In this document: one piece after another, positions 9,001 through 12,000 of the stretch
Numbering within the stretch: position 1 is the stretch's first letter
Layout of the letters: each line of letters starts with the position of its first letter
From: Escherichia coli O157:H7
GTDB lineage: Bacteria > Pseudomonadota > Gammaproteobacteria > Enterobacterales > Enterobacteriaceae
DNA length: 64,000 bases
Reading direction: 5' to 3' (one strand)
Assembly (NCBI RefSeq): GCF_013167455.1
Contig: NZ_CP038328.1
Program-made: the position numbers

Positions 9001-12000
9001 GGCCTATGCCGATATCGTCTACGATGGCTGGAAAGCGCCGTCAATCATGCAGGTACCGGGTGCACGCGATGTGGCAGTCGAGTTCTTTACGCTGTCGAAA
9101 AGCTACAACATGGCGGGCTGGCGTATCGGCTTTATGGTCGGCAACAAAACGCTGGTCAGTGCCCTGGCGCGAATCAAAAGCTATCACGATTACGGCACTT
9201 TTACGCCGTTGCAGGTGGCGGCGATTGCGGCGCTGGAGGGCGATCAACAGTGCGTGCGCGACATTGCCGAACAGTACAAACGCCGCCGCGATGTATTGGT
9301 TAAAGGGCTGCATGAAGCGGGCTGGATGGTCGAAATGCCGAAGGCTTCGATGTATGTCTGGGCGAAAATCCCGGAACCATATGCGGCCATGGGATCGCTG
9401 GAATTTGCCAAGAAGCTCCTTAACGAAGCGAAGGTCTGTGTCTCTCCAGGGATTGGCTTTGGTGACTACGGCGACACGCATGTTCGCTTTGCACTGATTG
9501 AAAACCGCGACCGTATTCGTCAGGCGATTCGTGGGATTAAAGCGATGTTCCGTGCCGACGGTTTACTACCCGCCAGCAGCAAACATATTCACGAAAACGC
9601 GGAATAAACACCGTCGTCAGAAATGCAAACAGGAGCCTGATGGCTCCTGTTTTTCATTGCACAGTTTGCTTTTAGATCATCAGGGCAAAAGTACCGGCCC
9701 AAACGATGACCATAAAAGAAATGCCCATAAAGAAATATTTCACTTTACATCTCTCCGCGTAATTACGGTTACGCCTGAATGACTTCATCACACCTGATAC
9801 AGTGAGTTGACACCGGGCAAAACGACCTTAAAAGTCCTGTATTTTACCGTGGGCATCACCCCAGAATTCTGAGCTAAACTGCTCGAGACGGCGCTAATGT
9901 ACGCCTAAAACTGAAACGAGACAAGAGGCATTTTCTTATTTACTTTTAGTAACTTACAGGTGTCTCATATCGGCGACAGTTTAATTTCTGGCGGTAATAA
10001 TTAGATATTCAGCGAAGGAAAAAATCTTAAGAAAAAAGCCATAAAAACCATGAGGTTATTATGGCCGATTTGAGGAGGGAAAGAGTAAGAGCAGTTTGTT
10101 AAATGTACAACGACGATTCTCCCACCGGGCGCGTTTTAAAGCGACGGTGGATCCAGAGGTACTGCTCCGGTGCGCGCATGATCTCTTTCTCGATAATCTT
10201 GTTCATATAGGCAGCGGCTTGATTTTCATCTGTCGGGTAGCCTTCCATCTCTGGGGTGATGAACAAACGATATCCGCTGTAATCCGCTTTTCTTACCATC
10301 GTTACGGTCAACATGGCTGCGCCAGAGAGACGGGAGAGAACATAGGTGCCATTGGTTGTGGCGACATTTTCCACCGCAAAGAACGGCGCGAAGGAGCTGC
10401 CTTTACGACCATAATCCTGATCGGGAGCAAACCATACCGCTTCACCTTTCTTCAGTGCACCGACAATGCCGCGCAGATTATTTCTGCCGATCATCGCTTT
10501 GTTAGAGCGCATGCGCCCACGGGTCTGCACCCATTCCATCAGCTGATTATTATGTGGACGATAGGTAGCCATCATTGGCTGACAAAGTCCCATCACGCGG
10601 CCGCCCAGTTCCAGCGACATAAAATGGACGCCGACAACCATTACGCCGCGATTTTGCATTTGTGCGCGTTTAAGGTTATCCAGCCCTTCAACATCAAACC
10701 ATTTACGTACGCGACTGTCGGGCCAGAACCACGCCATGCCGGTTTCTACCAGAGCCATGCCGAGTGAACGAAAGTTTTCGGCAATCATCTTCTCGCGTTC
10801 TTCCGCAGAATGCTGCGGGAAGCAAAGTTCCAGGTTTTTACGGGCGATAGATTCACGCCGTTTCAGGAATGGTCGCGCCATTGCGCCAATACGCGTGCCG
10901 AGAAAGCAGAGAACAGGATAAGGAAGCTGTACCCAAAGCCAGAGTACACCAAGCCCAAACCATGTGAGCCAGTAGCGAGGATGTAGAAACTCGCGGGAAA
11001 ATTTGCATTGTGGAAACATAGTTACCTTCTGTAGATACGAATTGTTGTATCGCAGAAGATTCCATGTCGACAGCGGTACACTCAATTGGTTGGGCCATCA
11101 TGTACGACAATGGTTCCTGTAAAGAGTGTAAAGACTAGTCAGGACATAACCACGAGGAGCATGAATGCGGTATCTGTACTTTATCACTGGCTGACTGCTT
11201 TCAGCTACTGATTATTAATCGTGCAAAGTAAAAAATTTTCCGCACGCAATAGTATTGCATTTAACATGCTGTTTTCATTGACGCTTAGCAAAAATTGCCA
11301 GAGGTTAAGGATTGTCTTACTATTAAAGTGACTGAAGTTACAGGTTTTTTAGCGCGGCAGGAGGTTGAGCTATGTTTTATTTATGGATGTTTCTCGCCCT
11401 GTGTATTGTCTGCGTAAGCGGATACATCGGTCAGGTACTGAACGTGGTATCGGCGGTCTCTTCTTTCTTCGGCATGGTGATCCTCGCTGCACTCATTTAT
11501 TACTTCACCATGTGGTTAACTGGCGGTAATGAACTGGTGACGGGGATATTTATGTTTCTTGCCCCGGCTTGTGGCTTGATGATTCGCTTTATGGTGGGGT
11601 ATGGCAGGAGATAGTGGGTCAGGATGGTTCATTTGGGCAGGTGTTCACATCAGCATCAGACATGATTGTTCACCTGCCAGGTGACAGACGCTATCGCACA
11701 GGATGAATAAGATAATTCGCCTTTGTCGGAAAAGGGGGCGTGGTTTCTTCTGTGAGGTTTAATGGTGGTGCATCTTCTCTCATCTTAAACAAAATCGCCT
11801 GTGATGGCTGAAATTTTGTAGAGTGAGTTGTCGTCATCGCTGACGTTTTTTCTGGCTCTTTATAGCTCGTCTCACTACCACCACCAGAATTAGAAAATGC
11901 AAAAACATTGCATGCCATAATAGAGACCAATAAAAATAAGCTAAAAAGTATTAAGTTTACTTTCATAGAAAGTTATCCTGAAAATGGTTCACTGAGAATG

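What the first reader, a model, noticed from the sequence alone, without database searches (positions are those of the whole stretch)
9628..9743. Short membrane-protein gene ypdK and shared terminator hairpin between alaC and lpxP
A 23-codon GTG-initiated ORF on the minus strand encodes a hydrophobic peptide recalled as YpdK, and a perfect 10-bp hairpin lies between it and the end of alaC. It is easy to miss by ORF finding.
Basis: partly seen in the sequence, partly recalled or inferred. Interest (0 to 1): 0.2.

Follow-up and report, generated by a model that had tools for sequence, protein, structure and literature searches.

The report
Known small gene ypdK plus terminator
This is the already annotated E. 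coli gene ypdK, which encodes a 23-residue membrane peptide, together with the hairpin that ends its transcript next to alaC; it is real and conserved, but not new.

Summary
A GTG-initiated 23-codon ORF lies at window 9672-9743 (minus strand). A perfect hairpin (11 bp, not 10) lies at 9627-9652 between it and the alaC stop codon.

The window is E. coli O157:H7, and RefSeq annotates this ORF as ypdK. It passes NCBI's dedicated YpdK model.

A 23-codon ORF alone means nothing, so I tested conservation. The frame occurs next to alaC in 75 of 80 Enterobacterales genomes. It always has a GTG start and almost always a GGAG-type ribosome-binding site, and its pN/pS of 0.27 is the lowest of the six frames.

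Published data add two points. A table in another paper that compares detection methods lists ypdK as detected by Ribo-RET (retapamulin ribosome profiling). Term-seq (RNA 3'-end mapping) places a ypdK RNA 3' end 3 nt past the hairpin.

One correction: the hairpin is shared by alaC and ypdK, not by lpxP. lpxP has its own terminator and is the upstream neighbour in only 18 of 76 loci.

The peptide's function is unknown. The best guess is a single membrane helix that binds a larger membrane protein.

In passing, ypdK has a conserved promoter and a ~146-nt leader. Two leader helices are supported by covariation, and no Rfam family matches.

Verdict: already known, low interest.

The parts
9672..9743 (-). 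ypdK coding sequence: GTG start, 23 codons, TAA stop; peptide (M)KYFFMGISFMVIVWAGTFALMI
   Evidence: sequence and translation. (RefSeq annotation in O157 and K-12). (NCBIfam YpdK, 57.5 bits against cutoff 30). (conserved in 75 of 80 loci; pN/pS 0.27).
9753..9756 (-). Shine-Dalgarno GGAG, 9 nt upstream of the GTG
   Evidence: Read. The CGGAG columns are invariant in the 41-sequence alignment. A GGAG- or AGGAG-type site is present in nearly all of the 76 frames.
9627..9652 (.). 11-bp perfect hairpin with a 4-nt loop between the convergent genes alaC and ypdK; bidirectional intrinsic-terminator candidate. Tail is UUUUUCAUU in the alaC direction and UUUGCAUUU in the ypdK direction, counted from the 8-bp GC-rich core.
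   Evidence: stability and rarity. (a hairpin of 7 bp or more at this position in 72 of 74 loci, with clade-specific sequences). (Term-seq 3' end).
9624..9624 (-). Position equivalent to the mapped ypdK RNA 3' end in K-12 (MG1655 2,497,040 +), 3 nt past the stem
   Evidence: Adams et al. 2021 eLife, supplementary file 1. Transferred to the window because the K-12 and O157 sequences are identical here.
9896..9945 (-). Predicted ypdK sigma-70 promoter: A-rich UP-like tract (~9927-9945), -35 TTGTCT (9924-9919), 17-nt spacer, -10 TACATT (9901-9896). Predicted transcription start is near 9889.
   Evidence: CTTGT and TACATTA are invariant or nearly so in 41 Enterobacteriaceae sequences, including genera without lpxP. 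A TA(A/G/C)ATT+AGCG box is also present in most Erwiniaceae. The start site is predicted, not measured.
9744..9889 (-). Predicted ~146-nt 5' leader of ypdK. It contains helix P2 (5' arm 9862-9851, 3' arm 9815-9804) and hairpin P4 (9774-9757), which abuts the Shine-Dalgarno.
   Evidence: P2: 93.7% of cells paired against 37-58% with slid partners; 3 pairs with compensatory changes. P4: 82% paired; 6 of 7 pairs with compensatory changes. No Rfam match.
8369..9607 (+). alaC (alanine transaminase), the convergent neighbour whose transcript presumably also ends at the hairpin
   Evidence: Used as the anchor for the 80 related loci.

Best explanation
This is the known small-protein gene ypdK with its own transcription unit.

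A conserved sigma-70 promoter (-35 TTGTCT, 17 nt, -10 TACATT) is predicted to start a transcript near window 9889. About 146 nt of leader follow, with two helices (P2 and P4) supported by covariation. A GGAG ribosome-binding site 9 nt upstream directs initiation at GTG 9743. The product is a 23-residue, almost entirely hydrophobic peptide. Its single charged residue is Lys2. Tyr3, Met6, Gly7, Ser9, Gly17, Thr18 and Phe19 are invariant.

The RNA ends 3 nt beyond an 11-bp hairpin that lies between ypdK and the convergent gene alaC. From its sequence, this hairpin is a bidirectional intrinsic terminator serving both genes.

Shown: the ORF, its annotation and family membership, purifying selection on the frame, conservation of the hairpin position, and, from published tables, a Ribo-RET detection and a mapped 3' end.

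Inferred: the promoter and start site; that the leader structure modulates translation; that the peptide is one transmembrane helix with its N-terminus in the cytoplasm (positive-inside rule); and that it acts by binding a larger membrane protein, as characterised small membrane proteins do. The partner and the physiological role are unknown.
For: Identity: 100% match to O157:H7, with ypdK annotated at these coordinates. K-12 b4680 has an identical ORF and hairpin. NCBIfam NF033437 equivalog scores 57.5 bits against a cutoff of 30.

Coding:
- The frame is present in 75 of 80 AlaC-anchored loci, spanning Escherichia to Pantoea, Erwinia and Serratia.
- GTG is the start in 76 of 76 frames, and the length is 23-24 aa.
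- An in-frame stop lies 1-2 codons upstream in about 30 loci.
- pN/pS is 0.27, the lowest of the six frames. Differences per site at codon positions 1, 2 and 3 are 0.23, 0.08 and 0.45. The frame is open in all 69 distinct sequences.
- Codons 3 and 4 vary synonymously (TAT/TAC; GCG/GCT/GCA/GCC), so translation starts upstream of Met6.
- ypdK is listed as detected by Ribo-RET (Meydan 2019 data) in the PIRT-Seq comparison table.
- It was reported as one of 18 new small membrane proteins by Hemm et al. 2008, as cited in PMC3009722.

Terminator: stability and rarity; a hairpin at the same place in 72 of 74 loci although its sequence is replaced between clades; a Term-seq 'primary' ypdK 3' end.

Independent unit: lpxP is upstream in only 18 of 76 loci, lpxP has its own mapped 3' end, and the promoter is conserved.

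Peptide: GRAVY 1.73.
Against: - No function, partner or membrane localisation could be checked here. The primary papers (Hemm 2008 and 2010, Fontaine 2011) are not held.
- ypdK was detected by Ribo-RET only, not by proteomics or PIRT-Seq fusions.
- The ypdK 3' end was called in only one of three growth conditions.
- No 3' end in the alaC direction is listed at the hairpin.
- The U-tract on the ypdK side is interrupted (UUUGCAUUU).
- In Erwiniaceae the equivalent hairpins have no flanking A or T runs.
- Term-seq cannot separate termination from trimming back to a stable hairpin.
- The transcription start is predicted only. One open Cappable-seq supplement gave no hit, but the held text is probably incomplete.
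Confidence: 0.9

Rival explanations
1. The hairpin is a true terminator only for alaC. In the ypdK direction it is a 3' stabiliser: transcription ends further on (for example by Rho or by collision with alaC transcription) and exonucleases trim the RNA back to the stem.
For: The ypdK-side tail is a broken U-run (UUUGCAUUU), whereas the alaC side has U5. Erwiniaceae hairpins lack U-tracts on both sides. Term-seq reports 3' ends, not how they arose.
Against: The 3' end lies 3 nt past the stem, which is typical of intrinsic termination. Many Enterobacter and Lelliottia loci have a symmetric A7/T7-flanked hairpin, the classic bidirectional design.
Confidence: 0.15
2. ypdK is a type I toxin: a small hydrophobic membrane-damaging peptide. 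Its long structured 5' UTR keeps the mRNA translationally silent, and a nearby small RNA (for example the divergent Tpke70) acts as antitoxin.
For: The peptide is 23 aa and hydrophobic, like Ibs, ShoB or DinQ peptides. It has a ~146-nt structured leader with a hairpin abutting the Shine-Dalgarno. The annotated sRNA Tpke70 lies divergently at window 10035-10470.
Against: Tpke70 has no meaningful complementarity to the ypdK mRNA: duplex energy is -140 against -135 +/- 7 for shuffles, and no direct repeat links the two regions. In this locus set ypdK appears once per locus, next to alaC, across three families and under purifying selection. Copy number elsewhere in these genomes was not searched. 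From general knowledge, type I toxins are patchy and often multi-copy. Most genera lack the lpxP/Tpke70 region altogether.
Confidence: 0.04
3. The conserved element is non-coding: the 72 nt belong to a structured RNA or 3' UTR, and the ORF is incidental and not translated into a functional peptide.
For: The peptide is not in the proteomics or PIRT-Seq columns of the published comparison. The surrounding transcript has conserved RNA structure.
Against: Variation follows the codon pattern 3 > 1 > 2, with pN/pS 0.27 only in this frame. Amino-acid identities are preserved through synonymous changes. The GTG is invariant, the Shine-Dalgarno nearly so, and the stop-codon position stays within one codon while its identity varies among TAA, TAG and TGA. 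Ribo-RET detection is listed.
Confidence: 0.03
4. The real product has different ends: either the 39-aa ORF from GTG at window 9791, which is open in E. coli, or an 18-aa peptide from the invariant internal ATG (Met6).
For: In E. coli the frame stays open 28 codons upstream of GTG 9743. Met6 is invariant.
Against: About 30 loci have an in-frame stop 1-2 codons upstream of the GTG, so the extension is not conserved. Lys2, Tyr3 and residue 4 are conserved with synonymous variation. The GGAG lies 6-10 nt before the GTG, not before Met6.
Confidence: 0.03

Closest known systems
YpdK (E. coli K-12 b4680; NCBIfam NF033437; RefSeq WP_010723117.1)
   Same: Identical 23-aa sequence, identical position between alaC and lpxP, same GTG start.
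   Different: Nothing. This is that gene in an O157:H7 background.
Characterised single-helix small membrane proteins of E. coli that bind larger membrane proteins (for example AcrZ, MgrB, CydX, KdpF, MgtS, PmrR; my own knowledge, and the subject of the review PMC12648545, of which I saw only the abstract and outline)
   Same: Size under 50 aa, one hydrophobic helix, and a few invariant small or polar residues inside the helix (Gly7, Ser9, Gly17, Thr18) of the kind that mediate helix-helix contacts.
   Different: No partner, phenotype or regulon is known for YpdK. No sequence similarity to these proteins was tested or is expected. The analogy is the basis of the proposed mechanism, not evidence for it.
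Type I toxin peptides with long structured 5' UTRs (IbsC, ShoB, TisB, DinQ; DinQ described in PMC3567139, listed)
   Same: Small hydrophobic peptide; long leader; a hairpin next to the ribosome-binding site.
   Different: No complementary antitoxin RNA. Found once per locus in conserved synteny and under strong purifying selection across three families. No toxicity data.
Bidirectional intrinsic terminators between convergent genes (described genome-wide in E. coli by SEnd-seq; my own knowledge, not checked here)
   Same: A GC-rich perfect stem flanked by an A-tract on one side and a T-tract on the other, placed midway between two convergent stop codons.
   Different: Only one direction (ypdK) has a mapped 3' end in the data I could read. 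The flanking tracts are short in E. coli and absent in Erwiniaceae.

Membership tests
YpdK family (NCBIfam NF033437, equivalog) | Whole-protein HMM score above the curated cutoff (30 bits) | tested here: met
   57.5 bits, E = 9.4e-16, matching positions 1-23 of the 23-position profile.
YpdK family (NCBIfam NF033437, equivalog) | Same genomic position as K-12 ypdK (convergent with alaC) | tested here: met
   RefSeq annotation in O157 and K-12. alaC adjacency in 74 of 76 loci, with stop-to-stop spacing of 36-211 nt.
YpdK family (NCBIfam NF033437, equivalog) | The ORF is translated | tested here: met
   Literature look-up only. ypdK is in the 'Ribo-ret only' column of PIRT-Seq Supplementary Table 1, which uses the Meydan 2019 data. 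Purifying selection on the frame points the same way. I did not see the primary SPA-tag data of Hemm 2008.
YpdK family (NCBIfam NF033437, equivalog) | Integral inner-membrane localisation | not testable with these tools
   Only composition is available: GRAVY 1.73, with 21 consecutive uncharged, mostly hydrophobic residues after Lys2. At 23 aa the peptide is below the 30-aa minimum for structure prediction.
Rho-independent (intrinsic) terminator | Stable GC-rich stem-loop | tested here: met
   11 perfect pairs, 6 of them G-C. Free energy is -20.9 and -21.3 kcal/mol, z = -4.4 and -4.9.
Rho-independent (intrinsic) terminator | U-rich tract immediately 3' of the stem | tested here: inconclusive
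   alaC direction: UUUUUCAUU after the 8-bp GC core, which is good. ypdK direction: UUUGCAUUU, which is interrupted. The consensus scan did not call it in either direction.
Rho-independent (intrinsic) terminator | RNA 3' end mapped just past the stem in vivo | tested here: met
   ypdK direction only: Term-seq 3' end at MG1655 2,497,040 (+), equivalent to window 9624. No entry for the alaC strand.
Type I toxin-antitoxin system | A cis-antisense or adjacent small RNA with extended complementarity to the toxin mRNA | tested here: not met
   No direct repeat links the Tpke70 region and the ypdK mRNA. The duplex energy is within the shuffle range.
Type I toxin-antitoxin system | Toxicity of the peptide on overexpression | not testable with these tools
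   An experiment is needed.
Any described cis-regulatory RNA family (Rfam 15), for the ypdK leader | Covariance-model match at or near the gathering score | tested here: not met
   The only hit overlapping the unit is Plastid-psbJ-2 at 23.5 bits against a gathering score of 65.6, E = 0.16. Nothing was found at the leader in 8 other genera.

The most novel reading that the evidence does not exclude
The ~146-nt ypdK leader is an undescribed, conserved cis-regulatory RNA. It would run from the conserved TACATT promoter to the GTG. Helices P2 (window 9804-9862) and P4 (9757-9774) are supported by covariation, and an equivalent 5' helix occurs in Erwiniaceae. It would gate translation or stability of this small membrane protein in response to an unknown signal.
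Probability: 0.35. Interest if true: 0.35.

Novelty: already known. Interest (0 to 1): 0.1.

Why it matters
For the finding as given, very little. ypdK has been annotated in E. coli since 2008, and the hairpin is an ordinary convergent-gene terminator. The useful outcome is a clean check that a tool-less reader correctly recognised a 72-nt gene that ORF finders miss.

Two things have modest residual value:
- YpdK is one of many conserved small membrane proteins with no known function. Its invariant Gly, Ser and Thr residues and its stable linkage to alaC are concrete handles for a partner search.
- Its conserved promoter and structured leader are not in Rfam or in the literature I could search. 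They would be a tractable case of translational control of a small protein.

Tried and rejected
1. I recalled that the old predicted sRNA Tpke70 might be the ypdK transcript. This is wrong. Its published sequence maps to window 10035-10470 on the + strand, antisense to the lpxP 3' end, and does not overlap ypdK or its leader.

2. Tpke70 as an antitoxin for ypdK: no complementarity.

3. Leader helix P3 (inside P2): no better than shuffled sequence, 5.46 against 5.23 bp. A natural 33-nt deletion removes it in one Escherichia genome while keeping the P2 arms. Dropped.

4. Leader helix P5 (TTCATT with GATGAA, enclosing P4 and the Shine-Dalgarno): 71% paired, with only one pair showing a compensatory change. 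Tentative only.

5. Leader helix P1: clear in some genera, weak in Citrobacter and Enterobacter; mean stem 4.66 against 3.98 bp for shuffles. Moderate.

6. A second promoter at the conserved TATACT/TATAAT box: it has no usable -35 and is missing in E. coli and Citrobacter. Not adopted.

7. A conserved upstream ORF in the leader: none found. The ATG 7 nt before the GTG opens the +2 frame, whose pN/pS is 2.2. That frame is free of stops only because the peptide lacks Lys, Asn, Asp, Glu and Arg codons (and reasoning).

8. The primary papers (Hemm 2008 and 2010, Fontaine 2011, the EcoSal review, Thomason 2015) are not held. Supplements are not held for Weaver 2019, Conway 2014 or the YoaI preprint.

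9. A Cappable-seq transcription start near the predicted position: no hit, but the held text is probably truncated.

10. Searching by locus tag b4680: only irrelevant hits.

11. The built-in terminator and promoter scan found neither the hairpin nor the promoter. Both fall just under its consensus thresholds.

12. Pfam has no family for the peptide.
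Full report
**Observation.** On the minus strand, window 9672-9743 reads GTG AAA TAT ... 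ATC TAA and translates to VKYFFMGISFMVIVWAGTFALMI*. A GGAG lies at 9756-9753, 9 nt before the GTG. Between the ypdK stop codon (9674-9672) and the alaC stop codon (9605-9607) lies AAACAGGAGCC-TGAT-GGCTCCTGTTT at 9627-9652. It folds at -20.9 kcal/mol on the + strand and -21.3 on the - strand, z = -4.4 and -4.9, and no shuffle folds as well. Only three perfect hairpins of 10 bp or more occur in the 64-kb window, against about 0.55 expected. A 23-codon ORF on its own carries no weight: 59 ORFs of 20 aa or more overlap a 3.5-kb stretch here.

**Identity.** The 651 bases around the finding are 100% identical to E. coli O157:H7 and are present in 5422 of 5426 complete E. coli genomes. RefSeq annotates alaC, ypdK ('membrane protein YpdK', WP_010723117.1) and lpxP there, with ypdK mapping exactly to window 9672-9743. 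K-12 MG1655 has b4680 at 2,496,921-2,496,992. The ORF and hairpin are identical in K-12, O157 and a divergent Escherichia genome. The peptide scores 57.5 bits on NCBIfam NF033437 'YpdK' (equivalog, cutoff 30). Pfam has nothing. A 2010 tiling-array paper names ypdK as one of the 18 small membrane proteins reported by Hemm et al. 2008. I could not obtain the Hemm papers themselves.

**Is the frame really coding?** I fetched 80 loci from different species, anchored on AlaC.
- A YpdK-like frame is present in 75 of them. One of the five exceptions is a contig end, 53 nt after alaC. The 75 run from Escherichia, Citrobacter, Salmonella, Enterobacter, Kluyvera and Buttiauxella to Pantoea, Erwinia, Mixta and Serratia.
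- All 76 frames, counting the O157 reference, start with GTG and are 23-24 codons long. They end in TAA, TAG or TGA, and nearly all have a GGAG-type site 6-10 nt upstream.
- In about 30 loci an in-frame stop lies 1-2 codons upstream, which excludes the longer 39-aa ORF that happens to be open in E. coli.
- Among 69 distinct coding sequences, differences per site at codon positions 1, 2 and 3 are 0.23, 0.08 and 0.45.
- pN/pS is 0.27 in the ypdK frame, against 0.45-2.25 in the other five frames, and the frame is open in every sequence.
- Tyr3, Met6, Gly7, Ser9, Gly17, Thr18 and Phe19 are invariant. Lys2, Trp15 and Met22 are nearly so.
- Codons 3 and 4 vary synonymously (TAT/TAC; GCG/GCT/GCA/GCC in Erwiniaceae), so translation begins upstream of Met6.

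The published PIRT-Seq comparison table places ypdK in its 'Ribo-ret only' column. That means it was detected in the retapamulin ribosome-profiling data of Meydan et al. 2019 but not by proteomics or by PIRT-Seq fusions.

**The hairpin.** alaC and ypdK are adjacent in 74 of the 76 loci. In those 74 loci the stop-to-stop distance is 36-211 nt. In 72 of them the best hairpin in that spacer has at least 7 pairs. Its sequence is replaced between clades: CAGGAGCC in most Enterobacteriaceae, GGCGCC variants, GGGGCGAC in Pantoea, and GGGTCAGG in Erwinia. So it is the structure that is kept. In Enterobacteriaceae it is flanked by A-runs on one side and T-runs on the other, up to A7/T7 in Enterobacter and Lelliottia. 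That is the design of a bidirectional intrinsic terminator. In Erwiniaceae the runs are missing.

Term-seq data for MG1655 (Adams et al. 2021) list a 'primary' ypdK 3' end at 2,497,040 (+). The 3'-terminal nucleotide is position 51 of the printed 61-mer; I checked this convention on the SgrS row. The RNA therefore ends ...GGCUCCUGUUUGCA, 3 nt beyond the stem, equivalent to window 9624. The entry occurs once, so in one of three growth conditions; by its position in the file this is probably the minimal-medium sheet, which is my inference. No 3' end in the alaC direction is listed, so that direction rests on sequence alone (U5 tail). The built-in consensus scan missed the hairpin, presumably because the full stem absorbs three of the T's.

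**Correction on lpxP.** lpxP is the upstream neighbour in only 18 of 76 loci. In the others the upstream genes differ from genus to genus. The same Term-seq table lists a 3' end at 2,496,632 (+), just after lpxP, at the end of a T6 run that follows the hairpin GCCATAATAACC-TCAT-GGTTTTTATGGC. This is equivalent to window ~10032-10065. lpxP therefore has its own terminator, and the hairpin at 9627-9652 is shared by alaC and ypdK.

**ypdK's own promoter and leader (beyond the finding).** An alignment of the 200 nt upstream of the GTG from 41 Enterobacteriaceae sequences shows that the most conserved block is a sigma-70 promoter:
- an A-rich tract;
- (C)TTGT of the -35 (TTGTCT in E. coli, window 9924-9919);
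- a 17-nt spacer;
- a nearly invariant TACATTA (-10, window 9901-9896).

It is present whether or not lpxP is upstream. Most Erwiniaceae keep TA(A/G/C)ATT followed by AGCG. This predicts a start near window 9889 (K-12 ~2,496,775) and a ~146-nt leader. I found no experimental start site (inconclusive).

Within the leader, RNAalifold on a plain MAFFT alignment recovers an 11-pair helix, P2. Of its cells, 93.7% are paired, against 37-58% when partners are slid. The covariation score is 0.36 against 0.14 or less, no shuffle of 500 reaches it, and three pairs show compensatory double changes. A hairpin, P4, ends 0-2 nt from the GGAG in most Enterobacteriaceae and has many different compensated stems. 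It is 82% paired on an unfitted alignment, and 6 of its 7 pairs show compensatory changes. Erwiniaceae lack P4 but have a 5'-proximal hairpin with clearly compensated arms. A divergent Escherichia genome carries a clean 33-nt deletion of the interior of P2 that leaves both arms able to pair as a tetraloop hairpin. P1 is moderate, P3 is unsupported and P5 is weak. No Rfam family matches the leader in E. coli or in eight other genera. These sequence sets are related and small, so the structure is well indicated but not proven, and any regulatory role is inference.

**Mechanism.** The shown parts are the gene, its selection, its 3' end and its detection by ribosome profiling. The peptide is 23 residues with GRAVY 1.73, and its only charge is Lys2. 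That fits one transmembrane helix with the N-terminus inside, by the positive-inside rule (general knowledge). The invariant Gly, Ser and Thr positions suggest a specific helix-helix contact. The most likely mode of action is therefore binding and modulating a larger membrane protein, as for characterised small membrane proteins (my own knowledge; reviewed in PMC12648545, of which I saw only the abstract and outline). This is analogy, not evidence. I saw no functional data: the other papers that mention ypdK use it as a prophage-insertion landmark or as a machine-learning feature.

**Rivals.**
- Type I toxin. This is suggested by the small hydrophobic peptide, the long structured leader and the divergent sRNA Tpke70. 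It loses its antitoxin: Tpke70 maps to 10035-10470 (+), does not overlap the ypdK unit and has no complementarity to it. The conserved synteny also argues against it.
- A purely non-coding reading is contradicted by the codon-level pattern.
- Alternative ORF ends are contradicted by the upstream stops and by conservation of residues 2-4.
- The most serious residual doubt is narrow: whether the hairpin terminates ypdK transcription or only stabilises a trimmed 3' end.

**Verdict.** The gene and the terminator type are already known, so interest is low. The leader RNA is the only part that may be new.

Noticed in passing
window 9744-9945 (minus strand): ypdK has its own conserved sigma-70 promoter (-35 at 9924-9919, -10 at 9901-9896) and a ~146-nt leader. 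Two helices are supported by covariation: P2 (9804-9862) and P4 (9757-9774). There is no Rfam match and no mention in the searchable literature.
   Followed up: yes
window 9745-9750 (minus strand): In E. coli an ATG-TAA 'start-stop' sits between the Shine-Dalgarno and the GTG start (GGAGAGATGTAAAGTG). In most other genera the same place reads ATGA, which puts a TGA in the ypdK frame. The conserved GATGA may instead pair with the upstream TTCATT (weak helix P5).
   Followed up: partly
window 10035-10470 (plus strand): The annotated 436-nt 'sRNA' Tpke70 maps here, antisense to the 3' part of lpxP. Its annotated 5' end coincides with the lpxP terminator hairpin (10038-10065), so the annotated RNA boundary may simply reflect that hairpin.
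   Followed up: partly
window 10032-10065 (minus strand): lpxP's own intrinsic terminator: a 12-position stem with one mismatch, a 4-nt loop and a T6 run. A Term-seq 3' end maps to the equivalent K-12 position, 2,496,632.
   Followed up: yes
window 9854-9865 and 10250-10261: A 12-nt perfect inverted repeat (about 0.02 expected by chance in 900 nt). It makes the lpxP coding RNA complementary to the 5' arm of leader helix P2 (UCUGGGGUGAUG). A similar copy lies at 9784-9797. This is probably chance, since most genera lack lpxP here.
   Followed up: no
L002:4375-4700 (Escherichia genome labelled E. coli SCPM-O-B-8794): A clean 33-nt deletion, relative to K-12 and O157, removes the interior of leader helix P2 but keeps both arms. 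The ORF and the terminator remain 100% identical.
   Followed up: partly
about window 11104 (minus strand), 85 nt upstream of the lpxP start: The Term-seq tables list an 'orphan' RNA 3' end in the lpxP 5' UTR (K-12 2,495,560), in LB at OD 0.4 and in at least one other condition. This suggests premature termination or processing in the leader of this cold-induced gene.
   Followed up: no
window up to about 7992 (minus strand; L001 1-993): RefSeq marks the sensor kinase gene ypdA as frameshifted (pseudogene) in the matching O157:H7 strain. I did not check whether the window carries the same frameshift.
   Followed up: no
window 4705-4730 and 48840-48863: These are the only other perfect hairpins of 10 bp or more in the window: CCGGCGTCAG-ACCAAA-CTGACGCCGG and TTGCTTGCCA-ATTT-TGGCAAGCAA. 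They are likely terminators of other genes.
   Followed up: no
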